Shown piece after piece: positions 13,767 through 32,000 of a DNA stretch of 32,000 nt. The stretch is from Delftia acidovorans NBRC 14950 (GTDB lineage: Bacteria; Pseudomonadota; Gammaproteobacteria; Burkholderiales; Burkholderiaceae_C). Both the position numbers and the translations under genes were made by a program. The stretch is taken from assembly GCF_001598795.1 (NCBI RefSeq), contig NZ_BCZP01000010.1, positions 30,001 through 62,000 of the forward strand, read 5' to 3'. The number at the start of each line of letters is the position of its first letter. Within the stretch, counting starts at the first letter, position 1. The notes beneath the pieces are model-generated. The model worked only from the letters and a program-made list of their open reading frames with translations. It was not told the origin of the DNA and did no database searches.

Positions 13767-14153
13767 TCAGGCCTTGGGCGGCCGATGCAACAGGCACAGC
13801 TTGTTGCCATCCAGATCCCGCACATAGGCCAGGTACAGCCGGCCACCGGGCGAAGCCTCGCGCCAGCCGGGCGGATCCTCGCAGGTCACGCCCCCGGCTG
13901 CCACGGCTGCGGCATGGGCCGCGTCGGCCTGCTCGGGAGACTGCGTCGCAAAGCCGATGGTCGCGCCATTGCCGTGGCAGGCAGACTCGCCGTTGATCGG
14001 TGTGGAAATGGCAAACGTGCCGCCCGCGCTGCGGTAGAAATAGCGGTTCTTGTTGGCCATGCCCGGCGCAACGCCGAGCGCGCCCAGGAATGCGTCGTAG
14101 AACTGCTTGGATTTTTCGAGGTCGTTGACCCCGACCATGACGTGGCTGAACAT
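13767..14153 (-). CDS. VOC (glyoxalase/bleomycin-resistance/dioxygenase) family protein
   Basis: The product is MFSHVMVGVNDLEKSKQFYDAFLGALG...AYVRDLDGNKLCL, the typical VOC beta-alpha-beta-beta-beta pattern. AAGGAG lies upstream of the internal ATG at 14153. Confidence 0.75.
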   Translation of the reverse strand: MFSHVMVGVNDLEKSKQFYDAFLGALGVAPGMANKNRYFYRSAGGTFAISTPINGESACHGNGATIGFATQSPEQADAAHAAAVAAGGVTCEDPPGWREASPGGRLYLAYVRDLDGNKLCLLHRPPKA

Positions 14154-14292
14154 GCCTGTGTCTCCTTGGTTGATGCGAACCGGGATGTTAGCTGCGGCAC
14201 GCCGTCCTGCTGTCACCCATGCGCGCCAGCGACCATACTGTCGCCCCCGCCACAGCCGGCGGACATTGCACCGATACCGCGATACCGAAACC

Positions 14293-15570
14293 ATGCGCCT
14301 TCTTCACACTTCCGACTGGCACCTGGGCCAGCACTTCATGGGCAAGAGCCGCCAGGCCGAGCACGCTGCGCTCATCGACTGGCTGCTGGAGCAGGTCGAT
14401 GCCCAGGCGGTGGATGCCGTGCTCATCGCGGGCGATATCTTCGACACCGGCGCGCCGCCCAGCTATGCGCGCGAGCTGTACAGCCAGTTGGTGGTGCGCC
14501 TGCATGCGGCGGGCGTGGCCCTGTTGCTGCTGGGCGGCAACCACGACTCCGTGGCCACGCTGGCAGAGAACCGCGAGCTGCTGGCCTGCCTGGACACCAC
14601 CGTGGTTGCCGCCGTGGGCGAGACGGCCAGCCACGTGGTCGAGCTGCCGCTGCGGCGCCGGCCGGGGCAGCCGGCCGCGCCCGGCTGCATCGTCTGCGCC
14701 CTGCCGTTCATGCGCCCGCGCGACCTGGTGCTGAGCCAGCCCGGCCAAAGCGCCGAGCAAAAGCAGCAGGCGCTGCAGGCCGCCATCGAGTCCTGCTACC
14801 GCAGCGTGCACGCCGCCGCAATGGCACGCCGTGACGCGCTGGCCGCCGCATCCGGCCAGCGCCTGCCCATCATCGCCACGGGCCATCTCACCACCGTGGG
14901 CGCCAGCAGCAGCGAGTCCGTGCGCGAGATCTACGTGGGATCGCTGGATGCCTTCCCCACCTCGGCCTTTCCGCCCGCCGACTACGTGGCCCTGGGCCAC
15001 ATCCACCAGCCGCAGAAAGTGGGCGGCCTGGAGCACATCCGCTACAGCGGCTCGCCCATTGCGCTGAGCTTTGACGAGGCCCGCCAGTCCAAGCAGATGC
15101 TGCTGGTGGACCTGGGCCCCGAAGGGCTACAGGCCGTCACGCCGCTGCCCGTGCCCTGCTTTCAGCCCATGGCCTCGGTGGCAGGCAGCCTGACCGCCTT
15201 GCCGGATCTGATGCGCGCCACCGCCCAGGCCGGCAGCCCTGCACGGCCCGTGTGGTTGGAGGTGGTGGTGGAGCAGGACGACTACCTGCCCCAGCTCACC
15301 GACCGCGTGCAGGCCCTGGCCGACGAGCTGCCCGTGGAACTGCTGCGCGTGCGGCGCCAGCGCGGCCGGGCGGTGGCCGGCATGGCCGCCGCCGCCGGCG
15401 AGTCGCTGCACGAGATCAGCCCCGCCGACGTCTTCGAGCGCCGCCTGGCGCTGGAAACACTGGAGCCCGGCCTGGCCCAGGCCCTCACCCGGCGCTACCA
15501 GGAAGTGGTGGCCGGGCTTGATGCGCCCCAGCCAGGCGCCGGCGAACACGGCGAGGAGGCCCGCGCATGA
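14293..15570 (+). CDS. sbcD: Exonuclease SbcCD, nuclease subunit D (Mre11-like phosphoesterase)
   Basis: The sequence [12 protein letters not shown]...LIAGDIFD...LLLGGNHD carries the calcineurin-like phosphoesterase motifs I-III. The stop overlaps the sbcC ATG (ATGA at 15567..15570). Confidence 0.9.
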
Positions 15571-18500
15571 AGATCCTTACGCTGCGGCTCAAGAACCTCA
15601 ACTCGCTCAAGGGCGAATGGCGCATCGACTTCACGCAGGCACCGTTCGCGGGCAACGGCCTGTTCGCCATCACCGGGGCCACGGGCGCGGGCAAGTCCAC
15701 CCTGCTCGATGCCATCTGCCTGGCGCTGTACCACCAGACACCCAGGCTGAACAACATCTCGGCATCGGCCAACGACCTCATGACGCGCCACACGGCCGAC
15801 TGTCTGGCCGAGGTCGAATTCGAGGTCAAGGGTCAGGTCTACCGCGCCTTCTGGAGCCAGCGCCGCGCACGCGACAGGCTCGATGGCGCACTGCAGGCGC
15901 CCAAGGTGGAACTGGCCCGGGGCGACGGCATCATCCTCAGCAGCCAGACGCGCGACAAGCTGGAGCAGACTGCTGCCATCACGGGCCTGGACTTCGAGCG
16001 CTTCACCAAGTCCATGCTGCTGGCCCAAGGCGGCTTTGCAGCGTTCCTTGAAGCCAATGCCAACGTCCGCGCCGGCCTGCTGGAAGAGCTGACAGGCACC
16101 GAGATCTACGGCCTCATCTCACAAAAAGTCTTCGAACGCGCCCGCGATGCGCGCCAGCGCCTGGACCAGCTCAAGGCCCAGGCCGATGGCGTGGAGTTGC
16201 TGACGCCCGAGGCGCGCGATGCCCTGCAGGCCCAGGCCGACAGCCTGGTGACGGAGCAGGCCACGCTGCAGGCCGACTACCTGCGCACCCAGGCCCAGCA
16301 CCAATGGCAGCAGCAACTGGCCCAGGCCACCCAGACACTGCAGGCCGCCCGCACCGGCTGCGCAGACGCCGCCCAGGCACTGGAGCAGGCCACGCCCGAA
16401 CTGGAAAGACTGGCCCATGACGAGCCCGCGCAGGCGCTGCAGCCGCTGCACCAGGCCTGGCAGCGCAGCACCGCCGCCTGCGATGACAGCCGCCAGCAAC
16501 TGCAGCAACTGCGCGAGCACGAACAGCAGACCCAGGCCCGGCTGCTGCTACAGCACCGCCATGCCCAGGCCCTGTCCGCCCGCCTGGCCCAGGCTGCGCA
16601 AGACACCCTGGCCCGCCAGCAGACCGAGCACCAAACGCTGGAACAGTTCTGCACCCACCATGCAGCCCATGCCCTGCTGGGCGAGCGACTGGGCAGTTGG
16701 CGCCAGCAGTTCAAGCTGCGCGCCAGCCAGCAACAGCAAGCGGCCAACCAGCAGCAGGCCCTGCGCAAGCTGGATGCCGAACAGGCCCGCATGGCGCAAT
16801 GCGCCGAAGCCGGCACGGCCCAGGTCCAGGCCGCCACCGACGCCCAGGCCCGCGCCAGCGCCGCACTCCAGCACGCGCAGGACGAACAGGCGCAGCGCCT
16901 TCAAGGCAGCGGCGGCATGGCCGAGCTGCGCGCGCGCGAGCAGGCAGAGCAGGACCGCCTGCACCTGTGGCGCCAGGCAGAAACCCAGGCCGCGCAGCGC
17001 CGCGAACTTGCGCGCCAGCAAGCTGCGCTGGAGCAGGCATTGCGCGATGGAGAGGCACAGGCGCGGGCGCAGGACACATCGCTGCAAGCCCTGCGGCAGC
17101 AGTACAAGAGCGTCAAGGAACAGGTCGCGGACAAGCAGACCCTGCTCCTGCAGGAGCAGCGCATCCAAAGCCTGTCCGAGCACCGCCACGCCCTGCAGCC
17201 CGGCCAGCCCTGCCCGCTGTGCGGCGCGCACGAGCACCCGGCCGTGGCCGCCTACGAAGCGCTGGACGCCTCAGCCACCGAAGCCGCGCTGCGCCGCAAG
17301 CAGGATGAACTCGACGCCCTGCAAACCCAGGGCGAAACCGCCCGCGCCACGCTGGCCGCCACCACGGCCGCACAGGCTGCGCGCCAGCGCCAGGCCGACG
17401 AACTGGAACAAGACATCGCACGCTGGCACGGCACATGGCACGACACATGGCCGGGCCTCACGCAACCCCTGCAACTCGCGCCAGACAGTTGGCAACAGGC
17501 CGACACCCTCGCCGCATCGGCCCAGGCCTGCGCCCGCCAGCTGGACACGCTCAAGCGCGCCGTGCAGGCCGCCGAGCAAGGCGAGCAGGCCGTGCAACAG
17601 GCCAAGGACGCCGCCCAGCACAGCCGCCAGTCACTGCAGACCGCGCAAGGCCAGCTTGCGCTGCAGCAGCAGGCCCTGGCCGACCACAGCGCACGCCGCG
17701 AAGAACTGCAGCAATCCATCGCCAGCCTGCAGGCCGAAGCCCAGGCGCTGAACGCGCAGTTGCAGGCCTCACTCGGCGAGGCCGGCCACACCCTGCCCGA
17801 CGACGCCCAGCCCTGGCTTGAAGCGCGCGAAGCCGAATGGCAGCACTGGCAACAGGCCCGGCACGACCTGCAGCAACTGGCCCAATCCATGGCCTTGCAG
17901 CGCAAGGAATGCGAGGCGGCCGAGGCCGAGGCGCAGCGCTGGAGAAAACAGTGGGAAACACAGTGGGAGGCACAGTGGGAGGCGCAGAGAACGGCGCAGC
18001 CCCATCCCGCCGATACGGCTGTGGCAGAGCCGCCTTCACTGCCCTTGCCGCCCGTGGAACAGCTGCCGCAGGCCCTGGCCGAATGCGCCAGCGACATCGC
18101 CGCTCTCACGCGGCAGCAGGTTGCCCTGCAAGGCCAGCAGCAACAGGCCCAGGCCACGCTGGCCCGCCAGCGCGAGGAAGCGGCCCAGGCCGAATCCGCA
18201 TGGCAGGCCGCCCTGAGCACCAGTCCCTTTGCTGACGAACCCGCCTTCCTGCAGGCCCTGCTGCCCGCACCCGAACGCCAGCGCCTGGCCGCGCTGCGCC
18301 AGCAGTTGCAGGCGGCACAACAGCGCGCGGCCACCCTGCTGGAAGCCGCACAGCGCGAGCACACGGATCTGCAGGCCCAGGCCCTGACCGACCTGGCACC
18401 CGAAGCCATCCAGGCCCTGCTGCAAACACTGCAGGAGCGCCATACGGCACTCAGCGAACAACTGGGCGGCGCCCGCGCTCAGCTGGCCGACGACCAGCGC

Positions 18501-19064
18501 CGCCGCCAGGGCCAGCAGGCCCTGTTCGAGCACATCGCCGCCCAGGCGAGCGACAGCGACCTGTGGCAGCACTTGGACGGCCTCATTGGCTCGGCCAAGG
18601 GCGACAAATACCGGCGCTTTGCCCAGGGCCTCACCCTGGACCACCTGCTGCACCTGGCCAACCTCCACCTGGCACGCCTGCACGGCCGCTACCTGCTGCG
18701 CCGCAAGCCCGAGGGCGAGCTGGAACTGGACATCGTCGACAGCTGGCAGGGCGACACCCCGCGCGACACGCGCACGCTATCGGGCGGCGAGGCCTTCCTC
18801 GTCAGCCTGGCCCTGGCCCTGGCGCTGTCCGACCTGGTCAGCCACAAGACCTCCATCGACTCCCTGTTCCTCGACGAAGGCTTTGGCACGCTCGATGCCG
18901 ACACGCTGGAGATCGCGCTCGACGCACTCGACCGGCTCAACGACAGCGGCAAGATGATCGGCATCATCAGCCACGTGGAGGCGCTCAAGGAGCGCATCGC
19001 CGTGCAGGTGCGGGTGGAGAAAGGCGGTGGCGTGGGGCATTCGAGGCTGGTGGTTTCGTCGTGA
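15567..19064 (+). CDS. sbcC: Exonuclease SbcCD, ATPase subunit C (Rad50-like SMC protein)
   Basis: Walker A is [17 protein letters not shown] long Q/A/L-rich coiled coil follows, with the central zinc hook CPLC at 17211..17222. The signature motif is [17 protein letters not shown], and Walker B / D-loop is [11 protein letters not shown]. Confidence 0.9.
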
Positions 19065-27785: not shown

Positions 27786-30710
27786 TTACGCCAGATGCTT
27801 GCCCACGATGCCGGCCAGCTCGAACATGTTCACGCTGTCCTTGCCGAAGACGGGCCGCAGTTTGTCATCGGCGCGGATGACGCGCTTGTCCTTGGGGTCC
27901 TGCAGGTTCTGGGCCTTGACGTATTCCCACAGCTTCTTGACCACTTCGGTACGCGCCACCGTGCCTTCGCCGATGACGGCGGCCAGGGCCGCGCTGGGCT
28001 GCAGCGTGCCGGCGGCCGGCTTGCGCGCGGTCTTGGTGGCGGTCTTGGTGGCCGTCTTTGCCGTGGTCTTGGCCGCGGCTTTCTTGGCAGGCGCCTTCTT
28101 GGCCGGCGCGCTCTTGGCGGCCGCCGTCTTGCGCGGCGGGTACTTGCTGTCGCGCTGCTCGAACTCGAAGTTCACCTTGCCGGCCGCGCCATCCCAGACC
28201 AGGAAGGCCTTGAAGCTGCGGCGCGTGCGGTTGGAGACGAACTTGTCCAGCAGGTCGGTCTTGCCGGTCTGCAGCAGCTTTTGCATCTGCTCGCGCTCTA
28301 TGGGCTGCTGCAGGATGATCTGGCCGCTCTTGAAGTCGCAGCTGGGCGTGGCCTGGGCCAGCGTGGGCACGGCCTTGGCGCAGACGTAGTTGCTGCCGTG
28401 TTCGAAGACGGGCGCGCCGCACTTGGGGCAGGGGCCCAGCGATTGCTGGCTGGCAAAGTCCACCAGCTCGCCCGTGTCTTCGGAGGCGGCGTCGTCGCCA
28501 AAGTCGAACTCGAGCTTGTAGTTGCCGCCTTCCTCATCGTGCACGATGGTGACCTCGGCCACGAAGGGCCAGCCTGCCTTGGAGCGAAAGCCGTCCAGCG
28601 GGCCCAGGCGGCGGTCGCGCAGCAGTTGCTCGGCCTCGGCCGTCTCGAAGGTGCGGCCTGCAGGCGACTTGGTGAACGAGAAGCCGCAGCCCGCGCCCTG
28701 TCCGTCGCTGCCCGTGCAGCCGTAGCGGCGGTAGTTCTCCTTGACCACGCCGCCGCAGTTGGGGCAAGGCGTGGACAGGGTGGCGTAGTCGCCGGGCACG
28801 GTGTCTCGGTCGTATTCCTTGGCCTTCTTGACCAGCTTTTCCGTCATGGACTGGATCTGCTGCATGAAGGCATCGCGCGAGAGCTGGCCCTTTTCCATCT
28901 GCGCCAGCTTGTACTCCCATTCGCCGGTGAGGTCGGCGCGCGAGAGTTCTTCCACGCCCAGGCCACGCAGCAGGGTCATGAGCTGGAAGGCCTTGGCCGT
29001 GGGAATCAGCTCGCGGCCTTCGCGCAGCATGTACTTTTCGGTCAGCAGGCCTTCGATGATGGCCGCGCGCGTGGCAGGCGTGCCCAGGCCCTTTTCCTGC
29101 ATGGCCTCGCGCAGCTCGTCGTCCTCGACCTGCTTGCCGGCGCTTTCCATGGCTCCCAGCAGCGTGGCTTCGGAGTAGCGCGCGGGCGGCTTGGTCTTGA
29201 GGCCCTTGGGATCGACCTGGCCGGCGCGCGGCTGCTCGCCGGGCTGCACCGCGACCAGAGGCTGGCCCTTGTCGCCGTCCTTGCCGCCTTCGACCTCGTT
29301 GGCGGCCTCCTTGCCGTAGATGGCCAGCCAACCGGGCTTGACCAGGATCTTGCCTTCGGTCTTGAAGCTGTGCTGCTCGACCTTGCTGATGCGCGTGGTC
29401 ACCTGGTGCTCGGCGCTGGGGAAGAACACGGCCATGAAGCGGCGCACGACGAGGTCATAGAGCTTTTGCTCGGCCTCGGACAGGCCGCTGGGCGCCTGCG
29501 TGGTCGGGATGATGGCAAAGTGATCCGACACCTTGCTGTTGTCGAAGATGCGCTTGGTCGGGCGCACGTAGTTCTCGTCCAGCGCCTGCTGGGCAAAGGG
29601 TGCCAGGTGGCGCATGCCGCTGCCAGCCAGCATGGCGAAGGTCTGGTGCGCCACGGGCACGTAGTCCTCGGGCAGGGCACGCGAGTCGGTACGCGGGTAG
29701 GTCAGGGCCTTGTGGCGCTCGTACAGGCTTTGCGCCAGCGACAACGTGGTCTTGGCCGAGAAGCCGAACTTGCCGTTGGCCTCGCGCTGCAAACTGGTCA
29801 GGTCGAACAGCAGCGGGCTGGCCTGGGACGTGGGCTTGGACTCCTCGGTGACCTGGGCCGGCTTGCCGCGCACGGCGTCGGCAATGGCCTGGGCGTCGCG
29901 CTGGTTCCAGATGCGGTCGGCGCGGGCTTCCGCATCCTCGCTCTTCTTCCATTGCGTGTCGAACCACTTGCCCAGGTACTGCCCGGCCTGCGCATCGAAG
30001 GCGGCATGCACTTCCCAGTAGTCGCGGCTCACGAACTTGCGGATCTTTTCCTCGCGCTCCACCACCAGGGACAGCGTGGGCGTCTGCACTCGGCCCACGG
30101 TGGTCAGGAAGAAGCCGCCATCGCGCGAATTGAAGGCCGTCATGGCGCGCGTGCCGTTGATGCCCACCAGCCAGTCGGCCTCGGAGCGGCTGCGCGCGGC
30201 GCTGGCCAGGCCCAGCATCTGCGCGTCGCTGCGCAGGTTCTGGAAGCCGTCGCGGATGGCCTGCGGCGTCATGGACTGCAGCCACAGGCGCTTGACCGGC
30301 TTGCCCAGGCCCTTGCCGTCGGGCTTGGCGCCTGCGGCGTACTGCTCGATCAAGCGGAAGATCAGCTCACCCTCGCGGCCCGCGTCGCAGGCGTTGATGA
30401 GTTCGGTGACATCCTTGCGCTTGGCCAGCTTGACCACGGCATTGAGCCGGCTCTTGGTCTTGTCCACGGGCTTGAGGTCGAAATACGGCGGAATCACCGG
30501 CAGGTTGGCAAAACTCCATTTGCCGCGCTTGACGTCGAATTCCTCGGGTGCCTGGATTTCCACCAGGTGGCCCACGGCGCTGGTCACGACGTAGTGCTCG
30601 CTCTCGAAGTATTCATCGTGCTTGTCGAATTTGCCCGCCACCGGAGTCAACGCGCGGACGATGTCCTGCGCGACCGAAGGCTTCTCAGCAATCACCAGGG
30701 TCTTTGTCAT
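27786..30710 (-). CDS. topB: DNA topoisomerase III with C-terminal zinc-ribbon/topoisomerase C-terminal repeats, Lys/Ala-rich linker and SWIB/MDM2 domain
   Basis: The TOPRIM N-terminus is MTKTLVIAEKPSVAQDI. The active-site Tyr region is ALTYPRTDSRALPEDY. CxxC zinc ribbons are present (CPNCGG, CPKCGA). The linker reads AKSAPAKKAPAKKAAAKTTAKTATKTATKTARK. The terminal 70-75 aa, ...VARTEVVKKLWEYVKAQNLQDPKDKRVIRADDKLRPVFGKDSVNMFELAGIVGKHL, has the SWIB pattern (about 27789..28013). Confidence 0.9.
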   Translation of the reverse strand: MTKTLVIAEKPSVAQDIVRALTPVAGKFDKHDEYFESEHYVVTSAVGHLVEIQAPEEFDVKRGKWSFANLPVIPPYFDLKPVDKTKSRLNAVVKLAKRKDVTELINACDAGREGELIFRLIEQYAAGAKPDGKGLGKPVKRLWLQSMTPQAIRDGFQNLRSDAQMLGLASAARSRSEADWLVGINGTRAMTAFNSRDGGFFLTTVGRVQTPTLSLVVEREEKIRKFVSRDYWEVHAAFDAQAGQYLGKWFDTQWKKSEDAEARADRIWNQRDAQAIADAVRGKPAQVTEESKPTSQASPLLFDLTSLQREANGKFGFSAKTTLSLAQSLYERHKALTYPRTDSRALPEDYVPVAHQTFAMLAGSGMRHLAPFAQQALDENYVRPTKRIFDNSKVSDHFAIIPTTQAPSGLSEAEQKLYDLVVRRFMAVFFPSAEHQVTTRISKVEQHSFKTEGKILVKPGWLAIYGKEAANEVEGGKDGDKGQPLVAVQPGEQPRAGQVDPKGLKTKPPARYSEATLLGAMESAGKQVEDDELREAMQEKGLGTPATRAAIIEGLLTEKYMLREGRELIPTAKAFQLMTLLRGLGVEELSRADLTGEWEYKLAQMEKGQLSRDAFMQQIQSMTEKLVKKAKEYDRDTVPGDYATLSTPCPNCGGVVKENYRRYGCTGSDGQGAGCGFSFTKSPAGRTFETAEAEQLLRDRRLGPLDGFRSKAGWPFVAEVTIVHDEEGGNYKLEFDFGDDAASEDTGELVDFASQQSLGPCPKCGAPVFEHGSNYVCAKAVPTLAQATPSCDFKSGQIILQQPIEREQMQKLLQTGKTDLLDKFVSNRTRRSFKAFLVWDGAAGKVNFEFEQRDSKYPPRKTAAAKSAPAKKAPAKKAAAKTTAKTATKTATKTARKPAAGTLQPSAALAAVIGEGTVARTEVVKKLWEYVKAQNLQDPKDKRVIRADDKLRPVFGKDSVNMFELAGIVGKHLA

Positions 30711-30775
30711 TGTGTGTACTCGTCATTCCCCGCAGGACCTGCATGTCGCAGCCTGCGCTTCTACAATCCATGGCT

Positions 30776-30814
30776 CACGCGTGTACGTACGTGTACGCGC
30801 ACGCGCATGTGTGC
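30776..30814. other. 39-nt perfectly alternating pyrimidine-purine tract (Z-DNA-prone) in the topB / SET divergent promoter region
   Basis: The sequence CACGCGTGTACGTACGTGTACGCGCACGCGCATGTGTGC alternates Y-R at every one of its 39 positions. It contains CGTGTACG twice at a 10-bp period (30780..30787 and 30790..30797) and the palindrome GTACGTAC. Confidence 0.9.
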
Positions 30815-30837
30815 CTATTCAAGTTATCAGAGAAAAC

Positions 30838-31500
30838 ATGCCCCGCACAGCTTTGGCCCCTTCCGGCGGCCGCCGTATCCAGACCCGCCGCTCGGGTGTC
30901 CATGGCAAGGGCGTCTTCGCCGCGCAGGATCTTGCCGAAGGAGAGGTCCTTGTCGAGTACGTAGGGGAAATCGTCAGCTGGCAGGAAGCCCAGGACCGGC
31001 ATCCGCACGACCCCAGCCAGCCCAACCATACCTTCTACTTCCACGTGGACGAAGACCGCGTGATCGACGCCAACTATGGCGGCAACTCCTCGCGCTGGAT
31101 CAACCACAGCTGCGCTCCCAATTGCTACACCGACGAGCGCGATGGCCGGATTTTCATCGTCGCGCTGCGCAACATCGCCGCCGGCGAGGAGCTGAGCTAC
31201 GACTACGGCCTGATCATCGACGAACCCTACACCAGGAAGCTGAAGGCCGAGTATCCATGCTGGTGCGGCGCAGCCACCTGCCGCGGCACGCTGCTGGCGC
31301 CCAAGCGCGGCTGGCGCCCGCCCATGCCCGGCGATGCATTGCCGGCCAGCGCAAAGCCGGCATCGGAACAATCTGAAAAGACAAAGCGGGCCAAAAAGCA
31401 GCAGGTCAAAGCGGAAAAGCCTTTGGAAAAGCCCTTGGAAAAGGCCCCCCAAAAGCCAAGGAAAAAATCCCGCAAATCCTCCACAAAGGCCGGCGCATGA
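30838..31500 (+). CDS. SET-domain protein-lysine N-methyltransferase with Lys-rich C-terminal tail
   Basis: The SET core reads RSGVHGKGVFA...GEVLVEYVGEIV...RWINHSCAPNC...GEELSYDYG. The post-SET Cys motif is CWCGAATCRG. The tail reads EKTKRAKKQQVKAEKPLEKPLEKAPQKPRKKSRKSSTKAGA. The start is the internal ATG at 30838 of ORF 30622..31500. Confidence 0.85.
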   Translation: MPRTALAPSGGRRIQTRRSGVHGKGVFAAQDLAEGEVLVEYVGEIVSWQEAQDRHPHDPSQPNHTFYFHVDEDRVIDANYGGNSSRWINHSCAPNCYTDERDGRIFIVALRNIAAGEELSYDYGLIIDEPYTRKLKAEYPCWCGAATCRGTLLAPKRGWRPPMPGDALPASAKPASEQSEKTKRAKKQQVKAEKPLEKPLEKAPQKPRKKSRKSSTKAGA

Positions 31501-32000
31501 TGGCATCGTCCCCCATTCACTGGCCTGCGGAATCGCTGTGGCAGGCCATCGAGCCGCAGTTGCCGGGCTTTTCCGTGGAAATCGTGCCCAGCATCGGCTC
31601 GACCAATACCGAGCTGATGGCGCGCGCCCGCGATGGCCGCAACGAACCCGTGCTGCTGGTGACCGAAGTGCAGACCGCCGGCCGGGGCCGGCTGGGCCGC
31701 CAGTGGACCAGCGGCGTGGGCGATTCGCTGACCTTCTCGCTGGGCATGCCGCTGGCGCCTGCCGACTGGTCCGGCCTGTCGCTGGCCGTGGGCCTGAGCG
31801 TGGCGCAAAGCCTGCAGCCGCAATTGCCCGCCCCGGGCTCGCAGCGCCCGCGCATCGGCCTCAAATGGCCCAACGACCTGTGGATCGACGGCGACCGCAA
31901 GCTCGGCGGCATCCTGATCGAGACGGCCAGCTTTGTCGGCAGCGCCGCGCATGAGCCCGGCACGCCGCGCTACGTGGTCGTGGGCATCGGCCTGAACGTG
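31497..32000 (+). CDS. birA: Biotin-[acetyl-CoA-carboxylase] ligase, N-terminal part (runs off the right edge); group I type without an HTH domain
   Basis: My hand translation from the ATG at 31497 gives MMASSPIHWPAESLWQAIEPQLPGFSVEIVPSIGSTNTELMARARDG...VLLVTEVQTAGRGRLGRQWTSGVGDSLTFSLGM...LKWPNDLWIDGDRKLGGILIE. The hallmark GRGRxGRxW and KWPND motifs are present. The ATG overlaps the SET stop codon (ATGA). The ORF is not in the track because it has no stop inside the window. Confidence 0.8.
   Translation, partial: MMASSPIHWPAESLWQAIEPQLPGFSVEIVPSIGSTNTELMARARDGRNEPVLLVTEVQTAGRGRLGRQWTSGVGDSLTFSLGMPLAPADWSGLSLAVGLSVAQSLQPQLPAPGSQRPRIGLKWPNDLWIDGDRKLGGILIETASFVGSAAHEPGTPRYVVVGIGLNV

What the first reader, a model, noticed from the sequence alone, without database searches (positions are those of the whole stretch)
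30776..30814. 39-nt perfect alternating pyrimidine-purine (Z-DNA-prone) tract in the promoter region shared by a topoisomerase gene and the SET-birA operon
Seen in sequence: CACGCGTGTACGTACGTGTACGCGCACGCGCATGTGTGC alternates Y/R without a single break for 39 nt. It is made only of CG, CA/TG and TA steps. A run this long is not expected by chance in 32 kb (roughly 2^-38 per position). It lies 66-104 bp upstream of the topB ATG and 24-62 bp upstream of the SET ATG, so it must overlap at least one core promoter or 5' UTR. It also carries a 10-bp-phased direct repeat, CGTGTACG. Established knowledge: alternating CG/CA tracts flip to left-handed Z-DNA under negative superhelical stress and absorb supercoils. 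Inference: placed in front of a topoisomerase gene, this could act as a supercoiling-sensing switch (homeostatic control of topB and/or the SET operon). Alternatively it could be a binding site for a regulator that recognises the phased repeat.
Basis: partly seen in the sequence, partly recalled or inferred. Interest (0 to 1): 0.65.

Follow-up and report, generated by a model that had tools for sequence, protein, structure and literature searches.

The report
Conserved alternating tract between facing promoters
A 39-base stretch of strictly alternating pyrimidine and purine fills the gap between two promoter-like elements that point at each other (one toward topoisomerase III, one toward the SET-birA operon). 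Two bacterial families have kept the alternation while the letters changed, which makes it a good natural candidate for a supercoiling-driven DNA shape switch.

Summary
Window 30776-30814 is an unbroken 39-nt Y/R alternation. The next longest run in the window is 15 nt, and about 2e-6 such runs are expected per 32 kb.

Of 78 sequences with the same layout (the window plus 77 Comamonadaceae loci), 51 have an alternating run of at least 27 nt at the same place and 21 more have 16-26 nt. Further Sphaerotilaceae-type loci show the same. There are 69 distinct sequences among them.

- **What is conserved:** the Y/R class, 2-nt indels and high G+C, even in genomes of 47-52% GC. Base identity is not conserved, and RNA pairing is not favoured.
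- **Where it sits:** between a conserved TACAAT box reading toward SET and a conserved extended -10 (TGnTAnnnT) reading toward topB. It is therefore the shared initial transcribed region of two face-to-face promoters.
- **Linkage:** it stays next to SET when another gene separates it from topB.

A B-Z switch poised near sigma -0.035 to -0.044 is the best-fitting mechanism, but it is untested. The 10-bp-phased CGTGTACG repeat is specific to this window. I found no prior description.

The parts
30776..30814 (.). 39-nt uninterrupted pyrimidine/purine alternating tract (the finding)
   Evidence: An orthologous alternating tract is present in most related loci.
30762..30767 (+). TACAAT, a -10-like hexamer reading toward SET-birA (inferred promoter P_SET). 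The predicted start is about 30773-30777, at the left edge of the tract.
   Evidence: A TAnnnT box (TACAAT, TATACT or TAGAAT) lies 8-11 nt before the tract in 68 of the 75 related sequences that have an alternating block. No other TAnnnT lies between the tract and the SET ATG (read). The start site is inferred, not mapped.
30821..30829 (-). Extended -10 element TGATAACTT on the minus strand (TG 30829-30828, hexamer 30826-30821), reading toward topB (inferred promoter P_topB). The predicted start is about 30814-30816, at the right edge of the tract.
   Evidence: It lies inside the conserved 13-nt motif TCAAnnTAnCAGA (30819-30831). Six motif positions are invariant in 78/78 sequences. Five of them are T-15, G-14, T-12, A-11 and T-7 on the topB strand; the sixth is the T two bases upstream of the TG. 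There is no TAnnnT on the minus strand between the tract and the topB ATG (read). In Variovorax-type loci the topB ATG is only 4-14 nt from the TACAAT box, so the topB promoter must lie beyond the tract.
30780..30797 (+). Two copies of CGTGTACG spaced 10 nt apart, inside the tract
   Evidence: The repeat is not present in any related locus. It is most simply a local 10-nt duplication that lengthened the tract.
27786..30710 (-). topB: DNA topoisomerase III with a C-terminal Lys/Ala-rich region and a SWIB domain
30838..31500 (+). SET-domain protein gene, first gene of the SET-birA operon
   Evidence: The stop codon overlaps the birA start.
31497..32000 (+). 5' part of birA (biotin-protein ligase), which runs off the end of the window
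30732..30756 (-). GC-rich inverted repeat just upstream of TACAAT. It falls in the inferred topB 5' leader and in the -35 region of P_SET.
   Evidence: folds in the 107-nt leader; a hairpin of different sequence at the same place in several Comamonas and Acidovorax loci.

Best explanation
**What it is.** The tract is the spacer between two face-to-face promoters. It is therefore the common initial transcribed region of the SET-birA mRNA (plus strand) and the topB mRNA (minus strand).

**What selection preserves.** Strict purine/pyrimidine alternation and high G+C are kept. The letters, the length and RNA pairing are not. The selected property therefore most likely belongs to the DNA duplex itself.

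**Most likely mechanism.** The segment can flip from right-handed B-DNA to left-handed Z-DNA when local negative supercoiling rises.
- By published energetics, 38 bp cost about 33.5 kcal/mol to flip and absorb about 7.6 superhelical turns.
- The flip becomes favourable at sigma about -0.035 to -0.044. From my own knowledge, that is above resting unconstrained supercoiling but within reach of the negative supercoils left behind polymerases moving outward into topB and SET.
- In the Z form, the duplex from +1 to about +20 that each polymerase must hold would be unavailable. The B-Z junctions would lie within about 8 bp of both -10 boxes.
- The flip would also drain the torsional energy that helps promoter melting.
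- The tract would then act as a local supercoil buffer and sensor. It would throttle or reset both mutually exclusive promoters until the stress is relaxed.

**Shown here.** The tract, its conservation, selection on alternation and GC content, conservation and geometry of the two -10 elements, and the lack of selection for RNA pairing.

**Inferred.** The start sites, Z-DNA formation in the cell, and the direction of the effect on transcription.
For: **Alternation is conserved while sequence is not**
- 51 of 78 sequences have a run of at least 27 nt and 21 more have 16-26 nt, with 69 distinct sequences.
- In a right-anchored stack of 59 distinct sequences, columns -1 to -33 keep the Y/R class at 76-98%. 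Many of those columns are close to 50:50 for G/A or C/T.
- Length differences are in 2-nt steps.
- At 4-fold sites of the adjacent topB gene transversions dominate (ts:tv 0.27). Mutation bias therefore does not explain class conservation.

**The tract is locus-specific**
- 79 of 81 runs of at least 16 nt in 447 kb of related loci lie at this position.
- SET genes in other genomic contexts have no tract and no promoter pair.

**G+C richness is selected**
- Genomes of 47% and 52% GC carry tracts of 27 and 25 nt made almost entirely of CG and CA units, inside an AT-rich intergenic region.

**No sign of RNA-level selection**
- 46 distinct perfect tracts are no more stable than shuffles that preserve alternation and composition. 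Mean z is +0.17 for the SET sense and +0.66 for the topB sense.
- The RNAalifold consensus is only about -6 kcal/mol on either strand, with one covarying pair on the SET-sense strand.
- There is no Rfam hit.

**Geometry**
- A TACAAT box lies 8-11 nt before the tract, and a conserved extended -10 on the opposite strand lies immediately after it.
- The predicted starts are 40 bp apart here and typically about 33 bp apart in relatives.

**Energetics**
- Using the table in PMC3024258, the threshold is sigma -0.035 to -0.044 for this window. The median for orthologues is -0.036.
Against: - Nothing here shows Z-DNA. The threshold is an equilibrium estimate, and the in-cell superhelical density of these bacteria is unknown.
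- Unit composition (CG 45%, CA 29%, TG 19%, TA 8%) is about what base composition alone predicts in high-GC genomes. In those genomes there is no extra enrichment for the best Z-formers.
- Several clades tolerate single-base phase slips that break the tract into blocks of 7-20 nt (Rhodoferax, Hylemonella, Polaromonas). Each slip is costly for Z-DNA.
- Three lineages keep both -10 boxes but have a non-alternating spacer of 70-95 nt (L024, L052, L018). The tract is therefore dispensable.
- While two polymerases converge, the DNA between them is positively supercoiled. A flip can occur only after they have passed each other.
- For a relaxing enzyme, shut-off at high negative supercoiling would not be homeostatic.
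- The start sites are predicted from motifs, not mapped.
Confidence: 0.4

Rival explanations
1. **RNA-level element.** The tract matters as RNA. Any GC-rich alternating sequence folds back on itself, so it places a stable hairpin at the extreme 5' end of both overlapping mRNAs. That hairpin could protect against 5'-end-dependent decay or tune translation. The two complementary leaders could also pair as antisense RNAs.
For: - Every orthologue folds, with MFE of about -9 to -42 kcal/mol where a tract is present.
- In clades with broken alternation the leaders are longer and more structured than dinucleotide shuffles, with z down to about -3.
- Lineages that lost alternation still have a foldable leader (L024, L052).
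- The topB-sense RNA is G+U-rich and on average 2 kcal/mol more stable than the SET-sense RNA.
Against: - Perfect tracts are not more stable than random alternating sequences of the same composition. Mean z is +0.17 and +0.66.
- No consensus structure is shared across species, and only one pair covaries.
- Predicted pairing schemes differ between close relatives.
- A hairpin needs neither alternation in its stems nor alternation through its loops. Yet the Y/R class is kept in all columns.
- There is no Rfam match.
Confidence: 0.2
2. **Kinetic element for RNA polymerase.** A GC-rich initial transcribed sequence that reads alike on both strands could slow promoter escape or cause promoter-proximal pausing in both directions. 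An alternating G-rich sequence offers a G(-10)Y(-1)G(+1)-type pause context at every second position on either strand. This would strengthen mutual exclusion (sitting-duck interference) between the two facing promoters.
For: - The predicted starts are only about 33-40 bp apart, so two open complexes would clash (polymerase footprint from general knowledge).
- Pause-like G-N8-Y-G contexts occur at about twice the window density in the tract region, 0.108 against 0.058 per nt per strand.
- Face-to-face promoters of divergently oriented genes that compete at promoter binding and clearance are known (Ecl18kI, PMC2760811).
Against: - A two-fold enrichment is weak.
- Pausing or slow escape does not need perfect alternation over 30-47 bp.
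- Nothing was measured.
Confidence: 0.12
3. **Protein operator.** A regulator or nucleoid protein binds the tract, for example by reading the 10-bp-phased CGTGTACG repeat or short palindromes such as GCGTGCGCACGC.
For: - The window carries the phased repeat.
- Many tracts contain short palindromes.
- The SET-proximal end, CATGTGTGCATAT, is better conserved in sequence than the rest.
Against: - The phased repeat is found only in this window.
- Tract length varies from about 20 to 47 nt.
- Inverted-repeat spacing varies, and many columns are 50:50 between the two purines or the two pyrimidines.
- The conserved end coincides with the predicted discriminator and start region of P_topB.
Confidence: 0.05
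4. **Neutral relic.** The tract is an old (CG)n-like microsatellite that drifted by transitions and slippage and has no function.
For: Changes are transitions and 2-nt indels, as expected from deamination and slippage.
Against: - It is kept at the same place across two families whose synonymous sites are saturated and transversion-dominated.
- It remains GC-rich in 47-52% GC genomes.
- It is essentially the only long alternating run in 447 kb of related loci.
- It is not a tandem repeat by TRF.
Confidence: 0.03

Closest known systems
Promoter-proximal Z-DNA-forming alternating purine-pyrimidine tracts ('flipons'), described mainly in eukaryotes (concept in PMC10474125; TSS enrichment discussed in bioRxiv 10.64898/2025.12.30.697008)
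   Same: An alternating tract sits at the transcription start region. It is predicted to flip under the negative supercoiling left by polymerase, and it is proposed to reset or gate re-initiation.
   Different: - This one is bacterial.
- It is conserved as a property (alternation) across two families at one orthologous locus.
- It lies exactly between two converging promoters.
- No Z-alpha-type reader is known here, and nothing has been shown experimentally.
- The cited preprint says that work on Z-DNA in prokaryotes is limited, and it ranks Bacteria and Archaea lowest of the four groups for enrichment around TSSs.
Engineered (CG)n/(CA)n inserts in E. coli plasmids used to show Z-DNA in vivo and transcription blockage (Rahmouni and Wells 1989; Peck and Wang 1985; recalled from memory, not read here), and the SIBZ energetic model (PMC3024258)
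   Same: - Length and composition are comparable: 24-40 bp of CG and CA/TG units.
- The flip is predicted near sigma -0.03 to -0.045.
- It depends on transcription-generated supercoiling.
   Different: Those inserts are artificial. This tract is natural, heteropolymeric and evolutionarily maintained.
RY box of the Halobacterium bop promoter (Yang et al. 1996, J Bacteriol 178:840, listed in the references of PMC3184054; details recalled from memory)
   Same: A natural prokaryotic alternating purine-pyrimidine element next to a promoter, tied to supercoiling sensitivity and non-B DNA.
   Different: - It is archaeal.
- It is about 11 bp, against 25-47 bp here.
- It lies upstream of the start site rather than in the transcribed region.
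- It serves a single promoter.
Face-to-face promoters of divergently oriented genes, e.g. the Ecl18kI restriction-modification system (PMC2760811)
   Same: The genes diverge but their promoters point at each other from the far sides. This gives competition at promoter binding and clearance, and overlapping 5' transcripts.
   Different: Ecl18kI is controlled by a protein operator. Here the spacer is a conserved alternating tract and no regulator is known. The promoters here are inferred from motifs only.
Phase-variable dinucleotide repeats in overlapping divergent promoters, e.g. (TA)n between hifA and hifB of Haemophilus influenzae (recalled from memory)
   Same: An alternating dinucleotide tract lies in a bidirectional control region. 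Length changes occur in 2-nt steps.
   Different: - That tract is a homogeneous tandem repeat placed between -35 and -10, so copy number switches the promoters.
- This tract is not a tandem repeat.
- It lies downstream of both -10 boxes.
- Close relatives differ little.

Membership tests
Z-DNA-forming sequence / flipon | Uninterrupted purine-pyrimidine alternation of at least about 12 bp, made mainly of CG and CA/TG units | tested here: met
   The tract is 39 nt with units CG 8, TG 5, CA 3 and TA 3. Orthologues have runs of 25-47 nt.
Z-DNA-forming sequence / flipon | B-Z transition energetically reachable at physiological negative superhelical density | tested here: inconclusive
   A two-state estimate with the published energies gives sigma -0.035 to -0.044, depending on domain size. 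The orthologue median is -0.036. That is reachable with transcription-driven supercoiling, but probably not at resting unconstrained levels (general knowledge). No competition model was run.
Z-DNA-forming sequence / flipon | Left-handed conformation demonstrated (2-D gels, chemical probing, antibody or Z-alpha binding) and an effect on transcription | not testable with these tools
   This needs wet-lab work.
Face-to-face (convergent) promoter pair with transcriptional interference | Two promoters on opposite strands pointing toward each other with overlapping transcripts | tested here: met
   This holds at the level of sequence motifs only. TACAAT (plus strand) and TGnTAnnnT (minus strand) are conserved on the far sides of the tract in 78/78 sequences. 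In the window, no alternative TAnnnT lies between the tract and either start codon. In the short intergenic regions there is no room for a promoter between the tract and topB.
Face-to-face (convergent) promoter pair with transcriptional interference | Mapped transcription start sites and measured mutual interference | not testable with these tools
   No TSS data were available. The strict sigma-70 consensus scan found nothing because no -35 is present.
Structured cis-regulatory RNA (riboswitch, leader or attenuator family) | Conserved secondary structure supported by covariation, or a match to a curated family | tested here: not met
   - No Rfam match at E up to 10, other than chance microRNA hits.
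- The RNAalifold consensus is about -6 kcal/mol with one covarying pair.
- No excess stability over alternation-preserving shuffles.
- No terminator-like site.
Phase-variable simple sequence repeat in a promoter | Homogeneous tandem repeat whose copy number sets -35/-10 spacing | tested here: not met
   TRF finds no tandem array. The tract is heteropolymeric and lies downstream of both -10 elements.
Transcription-factor operator | Base-specific conservation at fixed length or spacing, usually with dyad or direct-repeat symmetry | tested here: not met
   Length varies from 20 to 47 nt, many columns are 50:50 within class, and the phased repeat is unique to the window.

The most novel reading that the evidence does not exclude
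This is a natural bacterial 'flipon': a B-Z switch built into the about 40 bp between two converging, mutually exclusive promoters. It would turn transcription-generated negative supercoiling into coupled on/off control of topoisomerase III and a SET-methyltransferase/BirA operon. It would have been maintained by selection on DNA shape rather than sequence throughout Comamonadaceae and Sphaerotilaceae.
Probability: 0.35. Interest if true: 0.85.

Novelty: new variant of a known kind. Interest (0 to 1): 0.7.

Why it matters
Whether Z-DNA has any regulatory role in bacteria is an old and largely untested question. Known examples are engineered inserts or single, short, unconserved tracts.

This locus offers a natural case with a clear evolutionary signature. 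The shape-determining property (alternation and GC richness) is conserved across dozens of genera, while the letters and the length are free. It sits at a precisely defined place between two promoter elements, next to a topoisomerase gene.

The question becomes directly testable in culturable bacteria such as Comamonas, Acidovorax and Variovorax. Nature has also supplied controls:
- lineages with phase-slipped tracts;
- lineages that lost the tract but kept both promoters.

Even if Z-DNA is not the answer, the compact face-to-face promoter cassette driving topB and SET-birA is a new regulatory architecture for these genes.

Tried and rejected
- **Strict sigma-70 promoter and terminator scan of 30600-30950:** nothing found. 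The promoters inferred later lack a conserved -35.
- **Rfam at permissive threshold:** only chance microRNA/snoRNA hits at E 2.6-5.6.
- **RNA hairpin as the selected feature:**
  - Dinucleotide shuffles gave mean z -1.1. This came mostly from clades with broken tracts.
  - Against alternation-preserving shuffles, perfect tracts show no excess stability.
  - There is no consensus structure on either strand.
- **Sense/antisense comparison:** the SET-sense RNA is the less stable strand. This argues against a selected SET-leader hairpin.
- **Regulator reading the phased repeat:** rejected, because the repeat is unique to the window.
- **Tandem-repeat or phase-variation model:** rejected.
- **Mutation bias toward transitions:** rejected, because neighbouring 4-fold sites have ts:tv 0.27.
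- **Pause-motif enrichment:** only about 2-fold, so kept only as a minor rival.
- **First ungapped ts/tv count on the tract:** it mixed clades with different 3' ends and is not meaningful. The class-purity stack replaces it.
- **SET homologue searches:** the two protein searches returned only close relatives. Outgroups came from the representative search and the metagenome scan.
- **Cluster look-up:** gave no organism names.
- **Bop RY-box paper (PMC177733):** not held.

Full report
**1. The observation**

Window 30776-30814 is CACGCGTGTACGTACGTGTACGCGCACGCGCATGTGTGC. It is 39 nt of unbroken pyrimidine/purine alternation, bounded by T30775 and C30815.
- The next longest alternating run in the 32-kb window (67.7% GC) is 15 nt.
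- In 300 first-order Markov simulations the longest run was 13-29 nt. The analytic expectation is about 2.4e-6 per 32 kb.
- The stated distances to the topB ATG (30710, minus strand) and the SET ATG (30838) are correct.
- CGTGTACG occurs twice, 10 nt apart.
- The flanking genes are as described. One is a DNA topoisomerase III (NCBIfam equivalog, 2071 bits; Toprim, Topoisom_bac, Toprim_Crpt and SWIB domains). The other two are a SET-domain protein and a biotin-protein ligase, whose start overlaps the SET stop as ATGA.

**2.

I fetched 80 loci from different Comamonadaceae species using the N-terminal 300 residues of TopB (best identity 91%, Comamonas).
- Almost all have SET divergent from topB, and almost all carry a long alternating run in between.
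- In 446,729 bases of these loci there are 81 alternating runs of at least 16 nt. Of these, 79 lie at this one position and the other two are 16 nt long.
- Among the 78 sequences that share the flanking motifs (the window plus 77 loci), the longest run is at least 27 nt in 51, 16-26 nt in 21, and under 16 nt in 6. There are 69 distinct sequences.
- Genera with long perfect tracts include Comamonas (31-43 nt), Acidovorax (29-47), Variovorax (mostly 33-39) and Ramlibacter (29-47).
- Rhodoferax, Hylemonella, Curvibacter and Xylophilus have several shorter blocks separated by single-base phase slips.

**3. What exactly is conserved**

I stacked 59 distinct sequences without gaps from the SET-proximal end.
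- Columns -1 to -33 alternate in class, with 76-98% purity.
- Base identity within a class is often near 50:50, for example G26/A24, T25/C28 and G28/A24.
- Length differences are multiples of two.
- This is not mutation bias. At 4-fold degenerate sites of the adjacent topB gene in the same genomes, transversions outnumber transitions (ts:tv 0.27).
- G+C richness is also kept independently of genome composition. Two metagenomic relatives from 47% and 52% GC genomes carry CGCGCGTGCGCACGCGCACACGCGCAC and CGCGCGCACGCGCACATGCGCGCAC inside an otherwise AT-rich intergenic region.
- In high-GC genomes the unit composition (CG 45%, CA 29%, TG 19%, TA 8%) is roughly what base composition predicts.

**4. 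Anatomy: two promoters facing each other**

In the SET orientation every locus reads as follows:

cTACAATc, then 8-11 nt, then the tract, then often ATAT, then TCAAnnTAnCAGA, then a U-rich stretch, then the start codon.

- *The first box.* It keeps the T, A and final T of a -10 hexamer through its variants TACAAT, TATACT and TAGAAT. No -35 is conserved upstream of it.
- *The second motif.* Six positions are invariant in 78 of 78 sequences. Read on the topB strand, five of them are T-15, G-14, T-12, A-11 and T-7, the defining positions of an extended -10 promoter (TGnTAnnnT). The sixth is the T two bases upstream of the TG (consensus from general knowledge).
- *In the window.* TACAAT is at 30762-30767 on the plus strand. 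TGATAACTT is at 30829-30821 on the minus strand.
- *No alternative promoter sites.* In the window, neither strand has another TAnnnT between the tract and its gene (read). In Variovorax-type loci the whole intergenic region is 73-86 nt and the topB ATG lies 4-14 nt from the TACAAT box. The topB promoter there cannot be anywhere but beyond the tract.
- *Predicted starts.* Applying the usual 7-nt distance from the hexamer gives starts at about 30774 (plus strand) and about 30814 (minus strand), which are the two edges of the tract.
- *Overlap.* The tract is therefore the overlapping initial transcribed region of both mRNAs. The distance between starts is 40 bp here and typically about 33 bp in relatives. 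That is too short for two open complexes, each holding +1 to about +20, to coexist (footprint from general knowledge).
- These starts are inferred, not mapped. The strict consensus scan found no promoter.

**5. Linkage**

- The cassette stays with SET. In five Ramlibacter loci and in Caldimonas brevitalea (Sphaerotilaceae), a thioredoxin-fold gene lies between the tract and topB. The tract remains about 20-25 nt upstream of the SET start in the Ramlibacter loci. In Caldimonas it is 27 nt long and ends about 28 nt upstream.
- A metagenome scan seeded with a distant SET protein (54% identical) returned two kinds of locus.
  - About 34 outgroup loci have SET behind a same-strand gene. They have no TACAAT/extended -10 pair and no alternating run longer than 14 nt.
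  - Many Sphaerotilaceae- and Comamonadaceae-type loci have the cassette and a 25-39-nt tract.
- Three lineages keep both -10 boxes but have a non-alternating spacer of 70-95 nt:
  - an uncultured Comamonas (L024);
  - an uncultured Curvibacter (L052);
  - Brachymonas (L018), which has also lost SET, so that birA faces topB directly.
- Polaromonas has 7-nt blocks separated by single C residues.
- The tract is therefore ancient and usually maintained, but it is not indispensable to the promoter pair.

**6. DNA or RNA?**

Any GC-rich alternating sequence is self-complementary, so all orthologues fold. Four tests argue that folding is not what is selected.
- Against shuffles that keep alternation and composition, 46 distinct perfect tracts show no excess stability. 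Mean z is +0.17 for the SET sense and +0.66 for the topB sense.
- The SET-sense RNA is the C+A-rich strand and is the less stable of the two.
- RNAalifold finds only a 6-bp consensus helix of about -6 kcal/mol with one covarying pair. The result on the other strand is similar.
- Rfam finds nothing.

A hairpin also does not explain why stems and would-be loops alike keep alternation. Clades with broken tracts do have more structured leaders than shuffles, so an RNA role cannot be excluded there.

**7. Mechanism**

Selection on alternation and GC content of the duplex points to a DNA-conformation property. The classical one is the B-Z transition.
- With the energies tabulated in PMC3024258, 38 bp of this tract cost 23.5 kcal/mol plus 10 kcal/mol for the two junctions. 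They relax about 7.6 turns.
- The flip becomes favourable at sigma -0.035 (50-kb domain) to -0.044 (4-kb domain). The orthologue median is -0.036.
- From general knowledge, this lies above resting unconstrained supercoiling but within reach of the negative supercoils behind transcribing polymerases. These accumulate between genes transcribed outward.
- I therefore favour a poised supercoil buffer or sensor. Once flipped, it denies both promoters their downstream duplex and drains the torsional energy that helps melting, until the stress is relaxed.
- The points against this model are listed under the best explanation (composition, phase-slipped clades, tract-less lineages, positive supercoiling during convergence, sign of regulation).

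I put this model at about 0.4. The rivals, in order, are:
- an RNA-level 5' hairpin (0.2);
- a kinetic escape or pausing role of the shared initial transcribed sequence (0.12; pause-like contexts are only about 2-fold enriched);
- a protein operator (0.05);
- a neutral relic (0.03).

**8. Comparison with what is known**

Full-text searches found no description of this element, nor any link between Z-DNA and these genera. A 2025 preprint states that work on Z-DNA in prokaryotes remains limited. The closest relatives in kind are:
- promoter-proximal Z-forming tracts, or flipons, mostly eukaryotic (PMC10474125);
- engineered (CG)n tracts in E. coli (from memory);
- the 11-bp RY box of the haloarchaeal bop promoter (reference seen; paper not held);
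- for the geometry, the face-to-face promoters of the divergently oriented Ecl18kI genes (PMC2760811).

It is not a tandem repeat, so it is unlike phase-variable (TA)n promoter repeats.

**9. Verdict**

The finding is real and clearly under selection.

I rate it a new variant of a known kind, with interest 0.7. It offers a clean, conserved, experimentally tractable bacterial test case for regulation by DNA shape.

Noticed in passing
window 27786-28100 (C-terminal part of topB) and 31315-31497 (C-terminal part of SET): Topoisomerase III ends in a Lys/Ala-rich low-complexity stretch followed by a SWIB domain. The SET protein ends in a Lys-rich tail. Two 'eukaryote-like' chromatin-type domains with histone-H1-like tails are encoded side by side.
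   Followed up: partly
window 31497-31500: The SET stop codon and the birA start codon overlap as ATGA. This suggests translational coupling within one operon.
   Followed up: yes
window 30732-30756; same position in L001, L002, L003, L009, L017, L020, L025, L042: A GC-rich hairpin ends a few nt upstream of the TACAAT box. That places it in the inferred topB leader and over the -35 region of the SET promoter. Different genera have different sequences that still fold (down to -24 kcal/mol). It is absent in the short Variovorax intergenic regions.
   Followed up: partly
L015, L019, L027, L054, L064 (Ramlibacter); L081 1837-2394 (Caldimonas brevitalea): A thioredoxin-fold (TlpA/AhpC-like, WCPYC motif) gene is inserted between the tract and topB, on the same strand as topB. 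The minus-strand promoter of the cassette presumably drives it.
   Followed up: partly
L018 2270-2500 (Brachymonas): SET is absent and birA is directly divergent from topB. Both -10 elements (CTACAAT and TGCTAATTT) are kept about 80 nt apart, with a non-alternating spacer.
   Followed up: partly
L083 2350-2385 (Polaromonas MAG); L072 upstream of SET: In Polaromonas the tract is replaced by 8-nt periodic blocks, CGCGCACC/TGCGCGCC. L072 carries a tandem duplication of the extended -10 motif, CCAACTTAGCAGA.
   Followed up: no
L084-L117 (metagenomic outgroup SET loci): Distant SET homologues sit just downstream of a same-strand gene. Many have a conserved GATACT/CATACT box about 60-90 nt upstream of the start, and none has an alternating tract.
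   Followed up: no
window 14107-19064: An sbcD-sbcC pair, the nuclease that cleaves hairpin and cruciform DNA, lies about 12 kb from the tract. This is probably a coincidence.
   Followed up: no
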